A stretch of 40,000 nucleotides of DNA, taken from Candidatus Altimarinota bacterium. GTDB taxonomy: Bacteria > Patescibacteriota > Gracilibacteria > 1-14-2-50-48-13. The stretch lies in the NCBI GenBank assembly GCA_046314355.1, contig JBKBWQ010000001.1, forward strand, positions 823,115 through 863,114, in the 5' to 3' direction. The translations under genes were made by a program, and so were the position numbers. The notes below the pieces were generated by a model, which saw only the letters and a program-made list of their open reading frames with translations, was not told the origin of the DNA and did not search any database. Each line of letters opens with the position of its first letter. Position 1 is the stretch's first letter. Of this stretch, positions 348 through 37,837 are shown in pieces.

Positions 348-428
348 TTGGGGCGCTATCATTAGGCTCAATAATTAAGTAATTGAACTCAATGCTTCCG
401 CTTATACATTCTTTTACAACTAATATCT

Positions 429-1163
429 ATGCCTGAAGGTCCATCTATCATTATACTAAAAGAAGAACTGCTTCCTTTTAAGGGGAAGAAAGTCATAGAA
501 GTATCAGGAAACAGTAAACAAGATATCCAGAGAATAAAAGGCAAAAAGATTTTTGATTTTCAAAGCTGGGGAAAGCATACGCTGATACAGTTTCAGGATT
601 TTTTTGTGAAGATTCATCTCCTCATGTTTGGAAGTTATAGAATCAACGAAAGAAAAGAAGAGAGAGAACCAAGACTTTCTCTGAAATTTGCAAAGGGTGA
701 AATAAATTTTTATAGCTGTGCAGTGACAATTTTTGAGTGACAAACAAAGGATATTTATAACTGGACTACTGACATTATGTCAGAGAACTGGGATCCTGAA
801 GCAGCTTATAAAAAATTAAAATCAATGCCAGATACGCTTGTCTGTGATGCACTGCTGGATCAGAATATTTTTTCAGGAGTGGGCAATATTATAAAAAATG
901 AAGTATTGTTTAGAATACGGGTTCATCCTTCAAGTACTATTGGCGCCCTTCCCTCCAGGAAACTTCGAGAACTCATCGAAGATGCGCATACGTATAGTTT
1001 TTTATTCCTTGAATGGAAAAAAGCATACACCCTTAAAAAACATTGGCAGGTACATACCAAGAAAGAATGTCCAAGAGATCATGAAAAAGTGAAGAAAGAA
1101 TATCTTGGTAAGACTCACAGAAGAACCTTTTTTTGTGAGAAATGCCAAATACTCTATCTCTAA
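429..1163 (+). CDS. nei: Fpg/Nei-family DNA glycosylase (endonuclease VIII-like) interrupted by one in-frame TGA at 738-740
   Basis: ORFs 429-740 and 777-1163 share a frame and are separated only by TGA plus 12 sense codons. The N-terminus MPEGP carries the catalytic Pro2/Glu3. H2TH motif LLDQNIFSGVGNIIKNEVLFRIRVHP. C-terminal FFCEKCQ is a zinc-finger remnant. It is intact only if TGA is read as sense; otherwise it is a pseudogene. Confidence 0.7.
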
Positions 1164-2781: not shown

Positions 2782-3819
2782 ATGAAAAATTCTTTCGAAA
2801 ATCTTACTATTAAACAGAAAGAGGTTATTAAAATGGAAAGAAAATATTTTGTTATGGTAAGTAATCTTGATGAACTTACAGATGAAGAGTCTTTTACTAT
2901 AATAGAAAAAGCAAAAGATATTGCACCAGATGCAATCTTATACTTTGCTCCACTTATAGCGAAGCGTTCATGGTTTAACGAAGATATTTTCAAGTATGTT
3001 GTTAATAAACTTCATGGAAAAGAAGATGAAATTCTTATTGAAGCATACCATTGGTTTAAAAGATACTCATGGTATCGCGATATAGATTTTAATCATGCAG
3101 CACAATTGTGTTTAATGAAAAAGAACTATAATAGTATTCTACTTGCATCAGGAGAGTTTCAGGAGACTACATGGTTTAATCCTTACTTAGAAGAAGCAAT
3201 TCATAGTTCTTTGAGTTCTAAGTCAGAAGAAGGATCGCATATTGTTTTAACACTAGTAGAAAGACCATATCTCTATTGGGTAACAAAAGATATAATAAAG
3301 AATATCTTCCAGGTATACCCTGATGATTTCTTATCCATAGTAGAAACTAAGTACTATGAAAAGATTTTTACCAAAAAAGAACTAATTGAAGAATTAGCAG
3401 TATTTCCACTAAGTGAAGAAGCTATAGAAAAACTCTATTTTCTACATGTATTACCATGGGATATTGATCAGTCAGAAATCACTCAAGAAATTTTCAACTC
3501 TAATGAAAAAAGAGCAAATTTTCTTGTTACTCTTTCTGAAAAGAAAGAAGACGGTGATTTAAATTATCATGATTGGAGACAAAATTTCTTTGAAAATCTA
3601 TTCCAGGTTATAAGTATCTATCAGCAATTTATAACCAAAGAAGATTTAGATAAACTGTTAGAGATGATTGAAGGAGTAGATGTTGGTGAATATTTATCTA
3701 TTTGCGCTGATCTTTCTCATAAAAATTTGGAAGAAGAGTATAAAGATATTTTCACCTTTTGGATTGAAGATCATCTACACGCAGGAGAACTTTTAGGTAA
3801 TAAATATAAAAATCAGTAA
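2782..3819 (+). CDS. hypothetical acidic cytoplasmic protein (345 aa from the ATG at 2782)
   Basis: Long ORF. AAAGGAGAAG SD about 8 nt upstream of ATG 2782, which is in frame with the track ORF starting at 2749. No recognisable domain. Confidence 0.6.
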   Translation: MKNSFENLTIKQKEVIKMERKYFVMVSNLDELTDEESFTIIEKAKDIAPDAILYFAPLIAKRSWFNEDIFKYVVNKLHGKEDEILIEAYHWFKRYSWYRDIDFNHAAQLCLMKKNYNSILLASGEFQETTWFNPYLEEAIHSSLSSKSEEGSHIVLTLVERPYLYWVTKDIIKNIFQVYPDDFLSIVETKYYEKIFTKKELIEELAVFPLSEEAIEKLYFLHVLPWDIDQSEITQEIFNSNEKRANFLVTLSEKKEDGDLNYHDWRQNFFENLFQVISIYQQFITKEDLDKLLEMIEGVDVGEYLSICADLSHKNLEEEYKDIFTFWIEDHLHAGELLGNKYKNQ

Positions 3820-3877: not shown

Positions 3878-3954
3878 AAAACACCCGTCTATCTTTCAAT
3901 AAACGGGTGTTACTTTCTTATTTACTCCTTCACTTCCCCTTCAATAACATCATC
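3878..3954 (-). repeat. orphan copy of the dnaK 3' end (last ~10 codons plus stop) and its terminator hairpin
   Basis: About 80% identical by eye to 6114-6188. The minus strand reads GAT GAT GTT ATT GAA GGG GAA GTG AAG GAG TAA ([10 protein letters not shown]), the same peptide as the true dnaK C-terminus with a synonymous GTT/GTG difference. It is followed by ACACCCGT..ACGGGTGT plus a T-run. Confidence 0.75.
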
Positions 3955-4583: not shown

Positions 4584-5089
4584 GGAAACCCCGGAGCTAG
4601 TGTATGGTACAATCCCCTCATGAGAATTCAAAACTATCCCATAGCACGTACCAACACTTATATCACCTCGTGTGGGGTACGAAATACCGTAGAAGGTATT
4701 TGAAGCCCTACGTGAAAGAGGAGCTTTTAGCATGGTTAAACAAAGAATTTAAGAAGTACCCTACACTCCATTTGGATGTAGTAAATGTTGATGAAGATCA
4801 TATTCATCTTCAAGTAGAGATTCCGCCGAATGTGTTGGTAAGTCGAGTGGTACTTGAAGAGTGGTTCGAGTAGGGTGCTGATCAAGAAGTTTCCGTTTAT
4901 TCGGCGGATGTATGTAGAAAACAGCATCTGGAGTGTAGAATATTTCTCATCCACCGTAGGGCTGAATGAGGAGATAGTTAGAAAGTACATCGAACAACAG
5001 GGCGCTCACGAGTACCCAGAGGAAACGAGTTTTTGAGTGCTCATGATGCCCGGAGGGAAACCCCGGAGCTAGCGTAGCGTACTCCGGGG
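4584..5089 (+). mobile_element. IS200/IS605-family element remnant (tnpA only)
   Basis: The Y1 transposase gene is flanked by the same 21-mer GGAAACCCCGGAGCTAG(T/C)GTA at 4584-4604 and 5056-5076. The right end forms the hairpin CCCCGGAG-N13-CTCCGGGG (5061-5089). Confidence 0.55.
4604..5036 (+). pseudogene. tnpA: IS200-type HUH/Y1 transposase TnpA, frameshifted
   Basis: YHLVWGTKYRR, HUH motif HIHLQV, and C-terminal SVEYFSSTVG..VRKYIEQQ with the catalytic Tyr. The frame changes at about 4853 (..VSRVV | c | LKSGSSR..), so the N and C halves lie in frames 2 and 0. Confidence 0.75.
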
Positions 5090-5186
5090 AGGAAGTCCTT
5101 TGTGTTAAGTGAACACTGGACATTCATACTTGAAAGTACAGCCAAAATATTGATATACTACCTATATCAATATTCTATACTAATCT

Positions 5187-6113: not shown

Positions 6114-6147
6114 AAAACACCCGCCTACTTCTCAGTAAACGGGTGCT
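6114..6147 (-). terminator. dnaK terminator
   Basis: On the minus strand, CACCCG..CGGGTG hairpin followed by TTTTAAAA, directly after the dnaK stop. Confidence 0.6.
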
Positions 6148-6155
6148 TTTTCCTC

Positions 6156-8081
6156 TTACTCCTTCACTTCCCCTTCAATCACATCATCCCCTTCTTTCTT
6201 CTTCTCCTTCACCGTAGTCCCATCATCCTCAGCCGTTGCCCCTTCGGCACCAGCTCCCGGAGTTCCCTCCTGAGGCTGCTGCTTGTAGAGCTCCTCTCCT
6301 ATCTTCATCGCAACATCAGAGAGTTCAGTAGTCGCCTTCTCAATATCTTCCTTAGAAGCATCTTCCTTAGCGAGTACTTCCTTCAATGCCGCAATCTTCT
6401 CCTCTGATCCCTTCTTCATCTCATCCGTAGCCTTGTCTCCAAGATCCTTCAGAGATTTTTCAGTCATATAGATAGTCTGCTCAGCATGATTTCGTGCCTC
6501 CACAGTTTCCTTTCGTTTCTTGTCATCAGCCGCATGAAGCTCAGCCTCCTGCTGCATCTTCTTGATCTCCTCCTCTGAAAGACCGCTTGATCCCTGGATC
6601 GTGATCTTCTGCTCTTTGCCGGTTCCCTTGTCCTTTGCAGATACATGGAGGATACCGTTGGCATCGAGGTCGAAAGTTACTTCAATCTGAGGTACTCCTC
6701 GTGGAGCTGGCGGGATACCGTCGAGGACGAATCGTCCAAGAGATTTGTTATCCTTTGCGAACTCTCTCTCTCCCTGTACTACATGGATCTCTACCGCAGG
6801 CTGAGAGTCAGCTGCTGTGGAGAATACCTGTGACTTGGAAGTTGGGATCGTAGTATTTCTCTCGATAAGCTTTGTAGCTACTCCTCCCATAGTCTCGATA
6901 CCGAGTGAGAGTGGAGTAACGTCGAGAAGAAGTACATCTTTTACATCTCCCATAAGGATACCTCCCTGGATCGCAGCTCCGATGGCTACTACTTCATCTG
7001 GATTTACGCCCTTATGCGGCTCCTTTCCGAAGAATGCTTTTACCTTCTCCTGGATCATAGGAATTCGAGTAGAACCACCTACGAGGATTACTTCATCAAT
7101 ATCTGAAACAGAGAGTTTTGCATCAGCAAGAGCTTTCTTACAAGGCTCCATACTTCGCTCTACGAAAGAAGAAATAAGTTGCTCAAACTTCGCTCGTGTG
7201 AGCTTAAGGTTGAGATGCTTTGGTCCTGTAGCATCTGCTGTAATAAATGGAATATTGATATCAATCTCAGATGTAGAAGAAAGCTCCTTTTTTGCTTTCT
7301 CTCCCTCTTCCTTGAGACGCTGAAGCGCCATCTGATCCTTTGAGAGATCAATTCCCTGATCCTTCTTGAACTCTTCGACAAGCCATTCAATAATGAGCTG
7401 GTCAAAGTCGTCTCCACCAAGATGCGTATCTCCATTTGTAGAGAGTACTTCAAAAGTTCCCTCTGGAGAAATATCAAGGATAGAAACGTCAAAGGTTCCT
7501 CCACCAAAGTCATAGATCACTACCTTCTCTTCCTTCTTCTTATCAAGTCCGTAAGCAAGAGCAGCAGCAGTTGGCTCATTAATAATTCTCTTAACATCAA
7601 GTCCCGCAATTCGGCCTGCATCTTTAGTTGCCTGTCTCTGCGAGTCATTGAAGTATGCTGGTACAGTGATTACTGCCTCAGTAACTGGCTGTCCAAGATA
7701 AGCCTCAGCATCTGCCTTGAGCTTTCCAAGAACCATAGCAGAGATCTCTGCAGGTTTCTTCTTCTCACCATTAAGCACGATGAGTGACTCACCATCACTT
7801 CCCTCTGCAGTATCGTATGCGAGGTGACTAGTCTCCTCCTTTACTTCTCCAGCCTGTCGTCCGATGAGACGCTTTGCAGAATAGATAGTATTCTTTGGGT
7901 TAGTCACTGCCTGTCGCTTTGCGATCTGTCCTACAAGTCTCTCTCCATTCTTTCCAAGTGCAAGTACAGAAGGTGTAGTTCTATTTCCCTCTGCATTTGG
8001 GATAATCACAGCCTCTCCACCTTCCATCACAGCTACCGCTGAGTTTGTCGTTCCTAGGTCAATTCCAATAATCTTACCCAT
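6156..8081 (-). CDS. dnaK: molecular chaperone DnaK (Hsp70)
   Basis: [39 protein letters not shown] and full-length Hsp70 similarity. Start placed at the ATG at 8081 ([10 protein letters not shown]) rather than the track start at 8114. Confidence 0.97.
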
Positions 8082-9069: not shown

Positions 9070-10383
9070 TTATTCATATTTTCCTTCATACCACTCTCTC
9101 GAATCAACGATCACATCTCCAATAAAATGCGTAAAATGAAGATGTGGTCCAGTGGCAATTCCAGTTGCACCGACAAGTCCGATTACATCTCCCTTTTTAA
9201 CCATGTCATCCTTTGCAGTCTTTCTCTCAGACATATGCATATACATCGTAAATACATTCTGCCCATGATCTATGATCACCGTATGCCCATAAGAAGGAGT
9301 GTAGTCAGAGAGCACGATTTTACCATTATTTGAAGCATGTACAGGTGTCCCCGTTTTATTCGCGTAATCAATTCCAAAGTGAGAACCTGAAAGACTTCCG
9401 TTGATATAGACCGTATCTCCAAATCCCATGCTCACTTCCCCCTCAGCAGGTACTATGAAATTTCCCTCCCATAATTTTTCCGAATTTGTAGTCTTTTTAG
9501 CTCCATCAATCATTGCCCAGGTCTTGCTATAAGCATCATTGCCAAATAACGTAGTCTTGCTTGGCGGCAGAGAAAAACTCTCTACATTATATTTTCTTTT
9601 TAAAACAGTAATTACTTTCTCAAAGCTTTCCTTCTCACCTCTGAGAGTCTCAGCATTGAGCACTAGTTTTTTGTCACCGATATCATTAATACGATGAAGA
9701 CCTACAAATCCTCTGAAGAATTTTTGAGTAGTTCTTTCCTTGAGATCTGATAAACCTGAAGCTCTTTTAAGTAAGGTCTCAGCCTCAGCGAAGTTGAGGA
9801 ATCTGTCAGGCTTCACAGTACCATCTCCATATCCTTTGAATAATCCTGCCTGCATTGCCTGATACATATATGAGGCGAGTGAATGAGTCGGAGAAAGGTC
9901 AGAAAAAGATAAAGAAATCTCTACTGTTTGAGCAGGTGAAAAAGCAAGCATGAGTATTTTTGCAGCTTGAGCGCGTGTCAGAGGATCATATGTATGAAAT
10001 CTCCCATCCTCGTATCCCTTGATGATACCCAATGTCTGAGCTTTATAAATATCAGTTGCGTATTCCTGTGAGAGTGGGACATCAGGAAATAAAGTACCGC
10101 TTGAGGTATTTATTTCTCCAAAGGAATGATTTTTAAATATGATGGAAAGAAATTCACCTCTGGAGATTGGCTCAAAATCAGAGGGAGTTTGCGTCATTTC
10201 AAAAAGCTTGATCTCTTTACCAGCAAGAGTCCCCTGAACTTTAGCAAGATTATTGCCAGGAATAGCGATCTCCAAAGTCGTCCCCTGCTCTACAGAATCA
10301 GCTAACTGCATATCAAAGGCTGCCGCACTTGTAATACTTAGAAAAGATATACAGAATGCTCCAAATAATAGAATTCTTTTCAT
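9070..10383 (-). CDS. secreted M23 peptidase with two SLH-like repeats
   Basis: Signal peptide from MKRILLFG (ATG at 10383). Two repeats resembling SLH (FPDVP..YATDIY..GIIKGYEDGRF..PLTRAQAAKIL and FSDLS..GLFKGYGDGTVKP). C-terminal M23 motifs HFGIDY and GPHLHF. Confidence 0.8.
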   Translation of the reverse strand: MKRILLFGAFCISFLSITSAAAFDMQLADSVEQGTTLEIAIPGNNLAKVQGTLAGKEIKLFEMTQTPSDFEPISRGEFLSIIFKNHSFGEINTSSGTLFPDVPLSQEYATDIYKAQTLGIIKGYEDGRFHTYDPLTRAQAAKILMLAFSPAQTVEISLSFSDLSPTHSLASYMYQAMQAGLFKGYGDGTVKPDRFLNFAEAETLLKRASGLSDLKERTTQKFFRGFVGLHRINDIGDKKLVLNAETLRGEKESFEKVITVLKRKYNVESFSLPPSKTTLFGNDAYSKTWAMIDGAKKTTNSEKLWEGNFIVPAEGEVSMGFGDTVYINGSLSGSHFGIDYANKTGTPVHASNNGKIVLSDYTPSYGHTVIIDHGQNVFTMYMHMSERKTAKDDMVKKGDVIGLVGATGIATGPHLHFTHFIGDVIVDSREWYEGKYE

Positions 10384-25690: not shown

Positions 25691-25872
25691 GTAGTCTAAT
25701 GAGGAGTGTAACTCAAGTGGTAGCATCTCCGAAACGTTTGTATTTGGAGACCCCTCCCGCAGCTCATATCTCCGCAGCTTAAGATAAAGAATAACTCTGC
25801 AGGATGACGCGCTCCCTATCCTTATTATGTACCACAGAGATATTGCCATCTCTAGAAGCGAGAGAATCGCAC

Positions 25873-26309
25873 CGAATGATGAGAGTCTCCGGGCTCCAAC
25901 CCCCTGTGTCCCCCTTCTCAGGGGGATAGCTCATAGGCTCCCTAACCCGAGTCCTGACATGTACGGCAGGTACATCGCCTGGCTGCGTAGTGGACTAGTA
26001 ACTAGTGACGGTCACTAGTTACTAGTCACTCGAGCCCTCATCTAGACCACGCCGTCCCTGGGGGTTTGGGGGAGGAGAAGCGTCTGATTACTTTTAGAAA
26101 GCAACCTCTCTGCCAGACGCTTTTCTCCTCCCCCAAGACTTTTGGTTACTTTTGGTCACAAAAGTGACGCCCCACCGGCAGGTGAAGAAGAAACCACTTA
26201 CTTCATCAAGCACCCTTCACCTCACTCAAACCTTTATCTCTTATAAGAGGATTTGTGAAAACTATAAGAACACTAGTTGAATAAACCAATATCCGACAAT
26301 GGATTCCCG
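25873..26309. repeat. copy 1 (core) of an unclassified GC-rich hairpin-dense element; candidate structured ncRNA or ORF-less mobile element
   Basis: About 95% identical by eye to 37400-37837 in the same orientation. No ORF is conserved between the copies. Contains a 35-bp perfect palindrome (25993-26027), a 19-bp stem (26068-26134) and several further helices. Weaker similarity extends to about 25722 and 26375. Confidence 0.85.
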
Positions 26310-26433
26310 CCGGAGTTTATGCTGGTGCAGATCAGTACGGGAATGACAGACATTTGATCACAAAAGTAACAAAGCTTTTGATTCTTTACCGAAAAGAATA
26401 TATCCTCTCACTGTATATTTTTTCCAGTTTTCC

Positions 26434-31101: not shown

Positions 31102-31133
31102 AAGAATTGTTGGAAACAATATAGGTTACTTAA

Positions 31134-31162
31134 ATAGTAGTGATAATATGTTCACTAGTCAA
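31134..31162 (-). promoter_or_regulatory. candidate lexA promoter
   Basis: The minus strand reads TTGACT-17 nt-TACTAT, ending about 30 nt upstream of the lexA ATG. Confidence 0.5.
31138..31157. promoter_or_regulatory. candidate LexA operator (SOS box) in the lexA promoter spacer
   Basis: Inverted repeat TAGTGA-N8-TCACTA. The minus strand contains GAACATATTATC, a degenerate GAAC-N4-GTTC Cheo-type box. Confidence 0.4.
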
Positions 31163-31312
31163 GGGAAGAAGGAAAAAGTAATTAAGTAATTGAGGAAGAA
31201 AGTAATTAAGTAATTGGGCTCAATAACTGGGCTCGGTAATTGGCTGCAATTATTGAGCTCAATTATTCGAGCCTAATAATGTGCGCCTAATGATAGAAGC
31301 CCAATTACTCTT
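31161..31312. repeat. C-free AGTAATTAAGTAATTG duplication followed by about 8 degenerate ~14-bp tandem units
   Basis: AGTAATTAAGTAATTG at 31177-31192 and 31201-31216. Then GGGCTCAATAACT / GGGCTCGGTAATT / GGCTGCAATTATT / GAGCTCAATTATTC / GAGCCTAATAATGT / GCGCCTAATGATAGA / AGCCCAATTACTC. Confidence 0.65.
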
Positions 31313-37068: not shown

Positions 37069-37124
37069 GGGAAAGGAGGAAGTAGTTGAGTAAAAGAGTA
37101 AGAGAGTAATTAAGTAAGAGGGGG
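37067..37124. repeat. C-free purine-rich module homologous to 31161-31218
   Basis: AAGGGAAAGGAGGAAGTAGTTGAGTAAAAGAGTAAGAGAGTAATTAAGTAAGAGGGGG against AAGGGAAGAAGGAAAAAGTAATTAAGTAATTGAGGAAGAAAGTAATTAAGTAATTGGG. Both abut the -35 box of a minus-strand promoter. Confidence 0.6.
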
Positions 37125-37399
37125 AGACTCAGGGTGACTGGTGAGAGTGTGGGTAACTTGTTACTAGTTTGGCTCTAAGGATAGGAATGAGGATGAGGGG
37201 TAAGAATTAGGGTAGATTCAAGTCATAGCACTGCCGAAACTTATGTATCTGGATGCTGCAGTTGTAATCTTGCGAAGAAAATAAAGGATTACCATCAACA
37301 TGAAGTAAGTTCCTTTGATTACGACTGTGCACTGGAGCCCGTTGGGCAATCCTTTATGGCTAAAGAAATATCCTTTGAACGGGATGACGCTCACGCGAG

Positions 37400-37837
37400 C
37401 GAAATGATGAGAGTCTCAGGGCTCAACCCCCTGGGTCCCCCTTCTCAGGGGGATAGCTCATAGGCTCCCCCTCCCCGAGCCCTGACATGTACCGCAGGTA
37501 CATCGCCTGGCTACGTAGTGGACTAGTAACTAGTGACGGTCACTAGTTACTAGTCACTCGAGCCCTCATCTAGACCGCACCGTCCCTGGGGGTTTGGGGG
37601 AGGAGAAGCATCTAATTACTCTTAGAAAGCACCCCCTCTGCCAGACGCTTTTCTCCTCCCCCAAGACTTTTGGTTACTTTTGGTCACAAAAGTAACGCCC
37701 CACAGGCAGGTGAAGAAGAAACCACTTACTTCATCAAGCACCCTTCACCTCACTCAAACCTTTATCTCTTATAAGAGGATTTGTGAAAACTATAAGAACA
37801 CTAGTTGAATAAACCAATACCCGACAATGGATTCCCG
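37400..37837. repeat. copy 2 (core) of the unclassified GC-rich hairpin-dense element
   Basis: About 95% identical by eye to 25873-26309. Identical 35-bp palindrome at 37521-37555. Weaker similarity extends to about 37217 and 37875. Confidence 0.85.

What the first reader, a model, noticed from the sequence alone, without database searches (positions are those of the whole stretch)
25722..26375. Copy 1 of an unclassified ~440-650 bp GC-rich, hairpin-dense non-coding element
The 800-bp gap between the divergent ATPase gene (start 25633, minus) and the GT4 gene (start 26434, plus) contains no ORF that survives comparison with the second copy.
- The core 25873-26309 is about 95% identical by eye to 37400-37837, with roughly 20 substitutions or indels in ~437 nt.
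- Two 60-nt lines I counted in the core are 52-58% GC, against about 30% in nearby spacers.

Helices visible directly in the sequence:
- GATGAG..GGGCTC (25878-25896) pairs with GAGCCCTCATC (26032-26042).
- CCCCCT-TCTC-AGGGGG (25910-25925), which on the minus strand carries a GAGA (GNRA) tetraloop.
- ATGTAC-N5-GTACAT (25959-25975).
- A perfect 35-bp palindrome, GACTAGTAACTAGTGAC-G-GTCACTAGTTACTAGTC (25993-26027).
- A bulged 19-bp stem, GGGGGAGGAGAAGCGTCTG / CAGACGCTTTTCTCCTCCCCC (26068-26134).
- GGTGAAG / CTTCACC (26181-26221).
- CTCTTATAAGAG (26238-26249).

A GC-rich structured island in an AT-rich genome is the usual signature of a structured RNA, but I cannot match it to RNase P, tmRNA, SRP, 6S, group I/II introns or any large ornate RNA I know. 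The alternative is an ORF-less mobile DNA element.
Basis: seen in the sequence. Interest (0 to 1): 0.85.

Follow-up and report, generated by a model that had tools for sequence, protein, structure and literature searches.

The report
Duplicated hairpin repeat, conserved RNA-like core
The two GC-rich, gene-free stretches are real copies of a composite repeat, and their 140-base centre belongs to a large hairpin-element family, absent from Rfam, that is scattered through candidate-phyla-radiation bacteria; this makes it a new structured, probably mobile, non-coding element of unknown function.

Summary

Rfam 15, phage, plasmid and protein searches classify nothing. Synteny and one metagenome scan show that the centre of each copy (26057-26197, 37585-37725) belongs to a widespread family. 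The family layout is a G-run, a long covarying hairpin (P1), a 34-nt module RRAC-TTTTGGTTAC-TTTTGGTYAC-AAAAGTRAC, then a small hairpin.

- A covariance model scores both window copies at about 100 bits.
- Across 54 distinct sequences, 96.8% of cells pair and 12 of 23 pairs show double changes (0/500 shuffles).
- G·U outnumbers A·C 48:14, which points to the window + strand.

Members are multi-copy, have no conserved neighbouring gene, and vary in orientation. They are missing from the orthologous spacer in five related loci and inverted in a sixth. One subfamily is a true MITE with 9-bp target duplications. A module-sharing subfamily lies in Bacteroidota.

My best reading is a non-autonomous, mosaic interspersed repeat whose single-stranded form must fold. 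A host small-RNA gene family is the main rival. Strand, ends, transcription and the mobilising or binding protein remain untested.

The parts
25875..26309 (+). Copy 1, high-identity repeat unit (435 nt)
   Evidence: 95.4% identity to 37403-37837. A Logan assembly of the same organism breaks 53 nt into it, at window 25927.
37403..37837 (+). Copy 2, high-identity repeat unit
   Evidence: It has the same orientation as copy 1 and lies 11.5 kb away in unrelated flanks.
25878..26042 (+). 5' domain A, specific to this genome. Closing helix GATGAG/CTCATC encloses hairpin 25910-25925 (CCCCCT-TCTC-AGGGGG), hairpin 25959-25975 and the perfect 35-bp palindrome 25993-26027.
   Evidence: Helices verified. 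In the two-copy consensus fold, 11 of the 12 variable alignment columns are unpaired and the twelfth is a G.U/G-C change; this fold is biased because it was fitted to both copies. No homologue in 120 metagenome loci.
26057..26197 (+). Family core, copy 1: G-run, P1 hairpin, module, small hairpin
   Evidence: Covariance model R1 scores 102.8 bits, E about 1e-26, full length. The best minus-strand match in the window (copy 2) is 16.8 bits.
37585..37725 (+). Family core, copy 2
   Evidence: R1 scores 100 bits, full length.
26066..26136 (+). P1 long hairpin (TTGGGGGAGGAGAA...TTCTCCTCCCCCAA)
   Evidence: The outer pairs covary across the family, for example column 17/182 with GC 26, UA 18, CG 3.
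26135..26168 (+). Near-invariant module AAGAC-TTTTGGTTAC-TTTTGGTCAC-AAAAGTGAC (hairpin GTTACTTTTG / GTCA / CAAAAGTGAC). Copy 2 has it at 37663-37696.
   Evidence: The 20-base pattern found at least 120 metagenome contigs, with 0 expected in window shuffles. nhmmer with the A-type profile matches only here. Paralogue pairs show compensatory changes.
26169..26179 (+). Small 3' hairpin GCC-CCACC-GGC
   Evidence: At this position other members carry hairpins of different sequence, such as CGCC-GGA-GGCG, CGC-AAA-GCG and CGGGTC-GTA-GACCCG.
26198..26300 (+). 3' extension shared by the two copies and loosely by L005. It overlaps the GGTGAAG/CTTCACC helix (26181-26221) and holds CTCTTATAAGAG (26238-26249).
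   Evidence: It lies within the 115-nt mismatch-free run. GC is 0.366 for 26198-26309.
26301..26345 (+). Hairpin GGATTCCCG...CGGGAATGAC, a separate REP-like module
   Evidence: The same motif occurs in unrelated contigs L066, L069 and L103/L105. Copy 2 carries a shortened version that ends in GACGGGATTTTTG.
26350..26372 (+). Second, degenerate module copy (ACATTTGATCACAAAAGTAACAA)
   Evidence: Other loci also carry solo module hairpins downstream of a full unit.
25713..25748 (.). Weak left block similar to 37218-37253. Membership in the element is uncertain.
   Evidence: 78% over 36 nt, E 0.026. It is separated from the core by about 125-150 nt of unrelated sequence.

Best explanation
The two segments are paralogous copies of an ORF-less, mosaic interspersed repeat in a Candidatus Gracilibacteria genome.

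**Shown.**
- Each copy is built around a 140-nt unit of a large family absent from Rfam 15: a G-run, a long hairpin whose sequence drifts while pairing is kept, a near-invariant AU-rich hairpin preceded by a tandem TTTTGGTTAC half-repeat, and a small GC hairpin.
- Onto this unit the lineage has added a 165-nt multi-hairpin 5' domain, a 3' extension, a REP-like GGATTCCCG hairpin and a second degenerate module.

**Inferred.**
- The unit is a non-autonomous element that spreads by duplication or transposition, using a protein encoded elsewhere.
- It persists because one strand, most likely the window + strand, must fold as RNA or single-stranded DNA.
- The invariant module would then be the docking site of that trans-acting protein, while P1 needs only to be a helix.
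- The window copies arrived by insertion into promoter-proximal spacers, upstream of the VirD4/TrwB-like ATPase and of EF-P, and are not part of those genes' own promoters.
For: **Family membership.** Covariance model R1 gives 102.8 and 100 bits for the window copies and 80 bits for the syntenic homologue L005. It finds 55 hits at E<1e-12 in metagenome loci, including copies that lack the search pattern.

**Structure under selection.**
- 96.8% of cells pair, 12 of 23 pairs show double changes, 104 cells are compensatory, and 0 of 500 shuffles reach this. Slid controls pair at 46-64%.
- Paralogue pairs show clean compensatory changes: L052 GGTTAC..GTAAC to GCCTAC..GTAGG, and L079 TCT..AGG to TCC..GGG.

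**Strand.** G.U cells outnumber A.C cells 48 to 14.

**Mobility or duplication.**
- The window holds two 95% copies in unrelated contexts.
- The orthologous spacer is 58-306 nt with no R1 hit in L008, L009, L010, L011 and L012, and is occupied by an unrelated 386-aa ORF in L003. In L005 the element sits in the same spacer in the opposite orientation.
- Up to three copies lie within 3 kb (L103), and at least 17 of the 80 listed hits lie within about 130 nt of a contig end.
- The source organism's own Logan assembly breaks inside the repeat.
- A-type relatives have complementary ends plus 9-bp target-site duplications in nearly every copy.

**No local partner.** No large or small neighbouring ORF is conserved.

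**Mosaic build.** There is a second module, the GGATTCCCG hairpin is shared with unrelated contigs, and GC-rich mini-hairpins are inserted in L005 and L103 copy 3.

**Breadth.** Contigs range from 23 to 63% GC. Two loci trace to Falkowbacteria and Patescibacteria, and the C-type subfamily to Paludibacteraceae.

**Published criterion.** Multiple copies with inconsistent orientation are the criterion used for 'mobile/repeat sequence candidates' in PMC11109978.
Against: - The window copies and ordinary G-type members show no terminal inverted repeats, target-site duplication or conserved target site. Their mode of movement is therefore unknown.
- Copies within one contig share flanks, such as tRNA plus spacer in L103, which looks like segmental duplication rather than transposition.
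- No transposase, reverse transcriptase or HUH gene is linked to the family. The only Y1 transposase in the window (4604-5036) is decayed and has unrelated end hairpins.
- Conservation this strong across phyla is unusual for REP or MITE families and would fit a host RNA gene.
- The module's apparent invariance is partly an ascertainment effect, because the metagenome loci were retrieved with a 20-base exact pattern.
- The sequences are phylogenetically related, so the shuffle statistics overstate independence.
Confidence: 0.45

Rival explanations
1. It is a family of genuine small non-coding RNA genes that benefit the host. The RNA is transcribed from the + strand and duplicated like other multi-copy sRNAs. 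The invariant single-stranded UUUUGG repeats and AU hairpin act as a seed or as a protein-binding handle. The window copies are long variants of this gene.
For: - Covariation and G.U asymmetry fit an RNA.
- There is strong sequence conservation of a partly single-stranded segment over 23-63% GC hosts.
- Members are free-standing in spacers with no linked protein.
- AT-rich DNA precedes the G-run in many members.
- The C-type unit in L114 is followed about 60 nt downstream by a classical intrinsic terminator.
Against: - No positioned -10 element lies upstream of the G-run in 32 non-redundant members.
- No promoter-like site is found on the + strand in the window.
- No U-tract terminator follows the 3' hairpin in G-type members.
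- The element shows presence/absence and an orientation flip at one orthologous spacer.
- A homologous unit rides inside a MITE.
- The two P1 substitutions between the window copies are tolerated only on the - strand.
Confidence: 0.3
2. It is a cis-acting regulatory insert for the flanking genes. It could be a cluster of operator sites (GTNAC palindromes, 10-bp phased TTTTGGTTAC repeats), a promoter or insulator, or a UTR stability element serving the ATPase, GT4 and EF-P genes.
For: - Both copies sit in promoter-proximal spacers, and copy 1 lies between divergent genes.
- GTNAC occurs 9 times per copy against 1.2 per 500 nt in the window.
- GTTACTAGTTAC-like sequences also lie upstream of the ATPase in L003 and upstream of EF-P.
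- In Bacteroidota loci L115, L068 and L093 the module lies 12-30 nt before a start codon.
Against: - The ATPase and EF-P promoters (TTGCAT-17-TACAAT; TTGCCA-16-TACAAT) lie outside the element (and reading). Related genomes express the same genes without the element.
- Downstream genes share no function.
- For G-type members the downstream gene is convergent in 20 of 29 cases.
- Compensatory changes and wobble asymmetry are not expected for a double-stranded operator.
Confidence: 0.1
3. It is a SINE-like retroelement. Unrelated RNA bodies (G-, C- and A-type) share a 3' module recognised by one reverse transcriptase encoded elsewhere. Solo modules are 5'-truncated copies.
For: - Different 5' bodies share the same 3' module, and the unit ends just after it: immediately in C-type and about 20 nt later in G-type.
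- Solo module hairpins lie mostly downstream of full units in about 8 distinct loci, counting the duplicate pairs L015/L101 and L018/L071 once.
- The module shows cross-phylum identity.
Against: - No reverse transcriptase was seen in any locus.
- The A-type target duplications are a constant 9 bp and come with inverted ends, which fits a DDE transposase rather than target-primed reverse transcription.
- There are no A-tails.
Confidence: 0.05
4. It is a neutral relic: one recent segmental duplication of a decaying spacer, with hairpins that have no function in this genome.
For: - Only two copies are visible, differing by 5%, and copy 2 has lost a 22-nt segment.
- The 5' domain has no homologue elsewhere.
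Against: - The core scores about 100 bits against a family model built mostly from other organisms.
- A 115-nt stretch has no substitution although the rest differs by about 6%.
- The flanks of the two copies are unrelated.
Confidence: 0.1

Closest known systems
BIME/REP-type mosaic extragenic repeats of enterobacteria and pseudomonads (REP, REPIN, mobilised by RAYT Y1 transposases)
   Same: They are extragenic and ORF-less, and are built from hairpin modules combined in mosaics. They have no terminal inverted repeats or target duplications, occur in clusters and in variable orientation, and keep their palindromes through compensatory changes. A Y1-transposase gene is present in the window (my knowledge of REP/RAYT).
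   Different: This unit is far larger (140 nt, or 435 nt here), and its two hairpins differ from each other. There is no GTAG-type tetranucleotide. The Y1 gene is decayed and flanked by unrelated hairpins. The module is identical across phyla, whereas REPs are species-specific.
MITEs (for example Correia/NEMIS, RUP, ERIC)
   Same: They are small, non-coding, multi-copy, show insertion polymorphism and fold into long hairpins when transcribed. The A-type relatives meet the full definition: complementary ends plus a 9-bp target-site duplication.
   Different: The window copies and G-type or C-type units lack terminal inverted repeats and target duplications. The conserved part is internal or 3'-terminal rather than at both ends.
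Candidate structured ncRNA motifs of the Breaker/Weinberg type, including their 'mobile/repeat sequence candidates' (PMC11109978)
   Same: It was found as a GC-rich island in an AT-rich spacer, shows covariation, and has multiple copies with inconsistent orientation.
   Different: It matches none of the 4227 Rfam 15 models.
Transposon-borne guide or scaffold RNAs (IS200/IS605 omega/reRNA, HEARO/IscB, IS110 bridge RNA)
   Same: They are structured non-coding RNAs that travel with mobile DNA, and ORF-less copies exist. A conserved scaffold sits next to variable sequence.
   Different: No TnpB, IscB or IS110 recombinase gene was noticed next to any of about 120 loci; neighbours were compared by all-against-all BLAST and read by eye, not scanned for domains. 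There is no HEARO or other Rfam hit.
Integron attC sites
   Same: They are strand-specific folded single-stranded recombination sites with variable stems. In L103 and L052 the units alternate with single genes on the opposite strand.
   Different: There are no RYYYAAC/GTTRRRY core sites and no integrase was recognised among the translated ORFs of L103 and L052 (not domain-scanned). The invariant part is a separate hairpin, and the units also occur outside arrays.

Membership tests
Any Rfam 15 family (RNase P, tmRNA, SRP, 6S, introns, OLE, GOLLD, ROOL, HEARO, riboswitches and others) | Covariance-model score at or above the curated gathering threshold | tested here: not met
   The window gives 0 hits. 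At E up to 10 the element matches only miRNA-type models at 12-25 bits against thresholds of 34-190. Across 20 family loci nothing falls at the motif. L114 and L082 regions give nothing meaningful.
MITE | Terminal inverted repeats at the element ends | tested here: not met
   The inverted-repeat scan finds only internal helices. The best end match, CTCCGG/CCGGAG, is 6 nt and occurs in copy 1 only.
MITE | Target-site duplication flanking each copy | tested here: not met
   The flanks of the two copies share no direct repeat. By contrast, A-type relatives have 9-bp duplications.
MITE | Short, non-coding, multi-copy, with filled and empty sites | tested here: met
   There is no ORF and two copies. 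Empty orthologous spacers occur in L008, L009, L010, L011 and L012.
REP/BIME with RAYT | Mosaic of short extragenic palindromic modules | tested here: met
   The module, a second module and the GGATTCCCG hairpin recur independently in other contigs.
REP/BIME with RAYT | Cognate Y1 (RAYT) transposase flanked by the same repeats | tested here: not met
   The Y1_Tnp remnant at 4604-5036 is flanked by GGAAACCCCGGAGCTAG repeats that are unrelated to the element.
REP/BIME with RAYT | High copy number per genome | not testable with these tools
Stand-alone small RNA gene | Conserved secondary structure supported by covariation | tested here: met
   for the 140-nt core only.
Stand-alone small RNA gene | Own promoter and terminator at fixed positions | tested here: not met
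   There is no -10 peak upstream of the G-run. No + strand promoter-like site is found in the window. No U-tract follows the 3' hairpin.
Stand-alone small RNA gene | Discrete transcript | not testable with these tools
   No expression data are available.
cis-regulatory leader or riboswitch | Constant sense orientation upstream of a functionally coherent gene set | tested here: not met
   The downstream gene is convergent in 20 of 29 G-type cases. No recurrent neighbour family is found.
IS200/IS605 PATE or omega-RNA | Adjacent or cognate TnpA/TnpB, similar left- and right-end hairpins, conserved target tetranucleotide | tested here: not met
   No linked gene is found. P1 and the module hairpin are unrelated to each other. 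Left junctions of C-type units share no tetranucleotide.
Integron attC | R''/R' core sites (RYYYAAC...GTTRRRY) and a nearby IntI integrase | tested here: not met
   Inspection of the sequence finds no core sites. No integrase is recognisable among the translated ORFs of L103 and L052, which were read by eye and not domain-scanned.

The most novel reading that the evidence does not exclude
The 34-nt module would be a portable 3' recognition handle that unrelated RNA or ssDNA bodies have acquired. These bodies include G-type in Patescibacteria, C-type in Bacteroidota, a 440-nt MITE, and perhaps an insert in a tRNA-like gene. One widely transferred trans-acting enzyme, a reverse transcriptase, HUH nuclease or RNA-binding protein, would copy, move or load them. 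That would be a bacterial counterpart of SINE/LINE tail sharing, operating across phyla.
Probability: 0.12. Interest if true: 0.85.

Novelty: new member of a known kind. Interest (0 to 1): 0.6.

Why it matters
Candidate-phyla-radiation bacteria have tiny genomes and very few described non-coding elements. This work defines a family that is easy to recognise, with a 34-nt signature and a covariance model. It covaries convincingly, recurs in well over a hundred metagenome contigs, and crosses from Patescibacteria into Bacteroidota, yet it is absent from Rfam.

If the family is mobile, it offers a handle on how repeats spread in streamlined episymbiont genomes and on what breaks their assemblies. 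If it is a host RNA, it is one of the most sequence-conserved small RNAs in that radiation. In both cases the invariant hairpin predicts an unidentified protein partner that can be searched for by co-occurrence analysis and pull-down experiments.

Tried and rejected
**Searches that found nothing**
- Rfam at gathering and permissive thresholds found nothing.
- There are no tRNA or tmRNA genes in the window.
- blastn in 'distant' mode against phages and plasmids found nothing.
- Three exact-pattern scans of IMG/VR found nothing.
- The genome-contig scan with GCACCCTTCACCTCACTCAA returned only two chance hits, from a Chromatiales and a Thermoproteota contig. That scan was wasted.
- The first metagenome scan, with a 24-mer from the mismatch-free run, found nothing.
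- Exact-protein look-ups for GT4 and EF-P found nothing on record.
- A chimeric six-frame translation, meant to catch spurious ORFs called on homologous elements, found nothing.
- The last protein search, on the 238-aa neighbour, found only itself. The orthologous site of copy 2 could therefore not be examined.

**Hypotheses rejected**
- Alternative genetic code 25: rejected.
- Remnant of the 386-aa gene that occupies this spacer in L003: no similarity.
- Diversity-generating retroelement template/variable pair: the differences are not adenine-specific.
- The module as a sigma-54, sigma-70 or Bacteroidetes promoter: the spacings do not fit, judged by reading the sequence.
- dif/Xer site, Ter site, CtsR box, parS and DNA uptake sequence: these are resemblances from memory only, and the sequences do not match.
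- Conserved partner gene: none by all-against-all BLAST of neighbours at 90 aa or more, at 40 aa or more, or among upstream co-oriented ORFs.
- Positioned promoter upstream of the G-run: none.
- Homology between the A-type MITE and the window beyond the module: none.

**Literature**
Searches on CPR, Patescibacteria and Gracilibacteria ncRNAs or MITEs, on the motif string, and on the peptide signature of the GGATTCCCG hairpin found nothing relevant.
Full report
**1.

The window holds two same-strand copies of a 435-nt segment, 25875-26309 and 37403-37837. They are 95.4% identical, with 20 variable positions. Looser similarity continues to about 26373 / 37875, across a 22-nt indel. A separate 36-nt block further left (25713-25748 vs 37218-37253, E 0.026) may be chance.

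- Composition: the core is 0.50 GC against 0.386 for the window. The enrichment sits in the 5' two-thirds: 0.566 in the 5' domain, 0.518 in the family core and 0.366 in the 3' part.
- Folding: both strands fold far better than shuffles, with z = -6.5 and -6.8.
- ORFs: no ORF in the spacers exceeds 69 aa. A concatenated six-frame translation matched nothing among 5.8 billion proteins.
- Host: a Candidatus Gracilibacteria MAG, since the window's ATPase is 100% identical to P0001 on a 1.62-Mb contig. Some Gracilibacteria read TGA as glycine, so I checked the code. TGA ends 7 of 34 long ORFs, and most well-supported genes, including the 799-aa ATPase, contain no in-frame TGA. The absence of an ORF is therefore real.

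**2. No known class fits.**

- Rfam 15 gives no hit at gathering thresholds. At permissive E-values it gives only hairpin-shaped miRNA matches far below threshold.
- There are no tRNA or tmRNA genes.
- Nothing matches in phage or plasmid collections or in IMG/VR.

**3. A homologue turned up through synteny.**

Gene order around copy 1 (…pilin–DciA–GT4 | VirD4/TrwB-like ATPase–…) is conserved in related genomes fetched through ATPase homologues.

- The GT4|ATPase spacer is 800 nt in the window.
- It is 58 nt in L010, 166 nt in L012, 186 nt in L008 and L009, and 306 nt in L011.
- In the closest relative, L003 (ATPase 82% identical), the spacer holds an unrelated 386-aa ORF.
- Only L005, L006 and L007 (ATPase 65% identical) carry related DNA there. 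One 71-nt block is 79% identical, with collinear looser similarity on both sides.
- Relative to the flanking genes, that copy is inverted compared with the window.

The ATPase promoter (TTGCGA-17-TACAAT in L005 and L011, TTGCAT-17-TACAAT in the window) lies outside the element, judged by reading. A Logan assembly of the source organism itself ends 53 nt into the repeat.

**4. The element belongs to a large family.**

The best-conserved block shared with L005 was used as the last metagenome pattern, GGTTACTTTTGGNNACAAAAGT. At least 17 of the 80 listed hits lie within about 130 nt of a contig end.

Nearly all hits share a longer module: RRAC-TTTTGGTTAC-TTTTGGTYAC-AAAAGTRAC. Its core is the hairpin GTTACTTTTG / GTYA / CAAAAGTAAC, preceded by a tandem half-repeat. 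The sequence upstream of the module defines sub-families:

- **G-type** includes the window, L005 and L120. It reads 5'-GGGG-TYT-GGGG(N)…(N')CCCC-RRRAC-module-small hairpin.
- **A-type** is a 440-nt repeat.
- **C-type** is a 230-nt extended hairpin followed by the module at its very 3' end.

Three loci could be placed taxonomically through exact protein look-ups: G-type L018 is Candidatus Falkowbacteria, L035 is Patescibacteria, and C-type L114 is Paludibacteraceae (Bacteroidota).

**5. The structure is under selection.**

An RNAalifold consensus of 25 non-redundant G-type sequences gives two helices. The first is an outer helix, G-run·UUUGGGGGNN / NNCCCCCAAA·CUU, that closes a long hairpin (P1). 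The second is the module hairpin.

A covariance model built from that alignment (R1) behaves as follows:

- It scores window copy 1 at 102.8 bits and copy 2 at 100 bits, both full length. The minus strand reaches at most 17 bits.
- It scores L005 at 80 bits.
- It finds no hit in the syntenic relatives that lack the element.
- It finds extra copies that lack the exact search pattern, for example three copies within 3 kb in L103, and two each in L052, L079 and L018.

On the 54 distinct sequences scoring E<1e-12, 96.8% of cells form standard pairs. Twelve of 23 pairs show double changes, covering 104 cells, and none of 500 shuffles reaches this. Sliding the 3' partners drops pairing to 46-64%.

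Paralogues within one contig show textbook compensation:
- L052: GGTTAC…GTAAC becomes GCCTAC…GTAGG.
- L079: TCT…AGG becomes TCC…GGG.

C-type units covary in the same way, for example AAAAACGC/GCGTTTTT against AAAAAGC/GCTTTTT.

Caveats:
- The alignment was fitted to the model.
- The sequences are phylogenetically related.
- The module's invariance is partly imposed by the retrieval pattern. However, the window and L005 share the module and were found independently of that pattern.

**6. Which strand folds is not settled.**

Across the family, G·U cells outnumber A·C cells 48 to 14, not counting two invariant G·U columns. This points to the strand that is + in the window.

The two window copies tell a different story. 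Their P1 substitutions (26082 and 26086, G to A) give A·C on the + strand and G·U on the - strand. Two transitions are too few to overturn the family signal, but the question stays open.

In the window-specific 5' domain, 11 of the 12 variable alignment columns fall at unpaired positions of the two-copy consensus fold. The twelfth is a G·U/G-C exchange on the + strand. That fold was chosen to fit both copies, and the single-sequence fold does not reproduce the enrichment convincingly.

**7. The genomic context argues against a cis-regulator and for a dispersed repeat.**

- No neighbouring protein family recurs, whether large or small, upstream or downstream.
- For G-type members the downstream gene is convergent in 20 of 29 cases, and orientation relative to neighbours varies.
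- No -10 box sits at a fixed distance from the G-run, and no U-tract follows the 3' hairpin.
- Copies within one contig can share long flanks, such as tRNA plus spacer in L103, which indicates segmental duplication.
- A-type relatives are bounded by complementary ends, CAATAGTGTCCGG…CCGGACAGTACTG. Nearly every copy is flanked by a different 9-bp direct repeat, such as AATTTTCAT, ACTTAGCGA, AGTGAATGT, AACTGGTAT or GGAGTCAAC. These are genuine MITEs.
- Read by eye from the alignment, A-type units appear to share the segment AG(Y)GAGTTTG…CCC-RRRAC plus the module with G-type units. An A-type profile search of the window matched only the module.

**8. The window element is a mosaic.**

Around the 140-nt family core it carries four further parts:

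- a self-contained 165-nt multi-hairpin domain (25878-26042), with no homologue in any fetched locus;
- a 3' extension, shared loosely with L005;
- a hairpin GGATTCCCG…CGGGAATGAC, which recurs in unrelated contigs L066, L069 and L103;
- a second, degenerate module at 26350-26372.

Small GC-rich hairpins have also been inserted into the units of L005 and of L103 copy 3.

**9. Interpretation.**

The features that count are:
- multiple copies, and filled versus empty orthologous sites;
- an orientation flip at one orthologous spacer;
- breaks in assemblies inside the repeat;
- a MITE subfamily, and mosaic construction;
- no linked gene, and cross-phylum identity of the module.

Together these fit a non-autonomous interspersed repeat. 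This matches the published working criterion for 'mobile/repeat sequence candidates' (PMC11109978).

Covariation with wobble asymmetry shows that a single-stranded form, RNA or ssDNA, must fold. The invariant module is the obvious candidate for a protein docking site. I put this reading at 0.45.

The main rival, at 0.30, is a host small-RNA gene family that merely duplicates. It is favoured by the unusual depth of conservation. It is weakened by the missing promoter and terminator signals and by the insertion polymorphism.

Three further readings are less likely:
- a cis-regulatory DNA element (0.10);
- a neutral relic (0.10);
- a SINE-like retroelement sharing a 3' tail (0.05).

**10. What is shown and what is inferred.**

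Shown:
- the repeat and its helices;
- family membership;
- covariation of the core;
- absence from the orthologous spacer in five related loci (L008-L012), with an unrelated ORF there in L003;
- the MITE nature of A-type units.

Inferred:
- mobility of the window copies;
- the acting strand;
- any transcript;
- the role of the module.

Not testable here:
- the copy number in the full genome;
- expression;
- the protein partner.

Noticed in passing
window 4585-5093: A decayed IS200-like Y1 transposase is split into 89-aa and 60-aa ORFs (4604-4873 and 4854-5036; PF01797 hit). It is flanked by direct repeats GGAAACCCCGGAGCTAG at 4585 and 5057, and the right one forms the hairpin CCCCGGAG...CTCCGGGG. 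It is unrelated in sequence to the finding.
   Followed up: partly
window 3878-3954 and 6114-6188: The last 10 codons of dnaK ([10 protein letters not shown]) and its downstream terminator are duplicated 2.2 kb away: 33 nt at 97% identity and 77 nt at 83%. The duplicates bracket a block that holds the IS200 remnant and three small unknown ORFs. This looks like an island inserted at the 3' end of dnaK with att-like direct repeats.
   Followed up: partly
window 31161-31218 and 37073-37122: A purine-rich repeat (AAGGAAAAAGTAATTAAGTAATTGAGG...) lies just upstream of both lexA and EF-P, which are minus-strand genes. It reads as a pyrimidine-rich leader on the gene strand. Its function is unknown.
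   Followed up: no
window 375-1163: The fpg (formamidopyrimidine-DNA glycosylase) gene is interrupted by an in-frame TGA at 738-740, between its N-terminal and H2TH domains. It is either a pseudogene or a recoding site. This is notable because the lineage is named Gracilibacteria yet otherwise uses TGA as a stop.
   Followed up: partly
window 31120-31165 (minus strand): The likely lexA promoter is TTGACT-17-TACTAT. Its spacer holds a palindrome AGTGAACATATTATCACT, a candidate SOS box for this lineage. The half-sites AGTGA/TCACT also occur at the centre of the element's 35-bp palindrome, with different spacing.
   Followed up: no
L003:7971-9131: In the closest relative (ATPase 82% identical), the spacer that holds the element in the window is occupied by a 386-aa ORF with no recorded Pfam hit and a repeat-rich, coiled-coil-looking C-terminal half. 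It shows no similarity to the window.
   Followed up: partly
L042:890-1000 (minus strand): A tRNA-like gene that ARAGORN does not call carries an insert of about 37 nt after the anticodon loop. The insert contains the module hairpin ACTTTTG-TTGC-CAAAAGTAAC in the tRNA-sense orientation.
   Followed up: partly
L103:8305-8377 and 9521-9593: Two tRNA genes, duplicated together with the G-type unit, are about 85% identical but are called with different anticodons (GGA and GTG).
   Followed up: no
window 26301-26345; L066, L069, L103:5989, L105: The hairpin GGATTCCCGC-loop-GCGGGAATGAC recurs in unrelated contigs and yields spurious peptides such as ...DSRFRGND.../...IPAFAGMT.... From memory this peptide signature is common in hypothetical proteins of many environmental bacteria. 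No paper was found.
   Followed up: partly
L005:2990-3015 and 3190-3215; L103:11235-11260: Short GC-rich hairpins (GATCCTCGCCTTCGCGAGGAC; CCCGCCTTGCCGGCGAGGCAGG) are inserted inside or beside G-type units. They may be a second, smaller class of REP-like inserts.
   Followed up: no
L068 (module region): One C-type copy has three tandem TTTTGGTTAC units instead of two, so the 10-nt unit varies in copy number.
   Followed up: no
L052:1126-1194: A DUF3800-IX RNA (Rfam RF02968, 47.6 bits) lies next to a DUF3800 gene, in a contig that also carries two G-type units.
   Followed up: no
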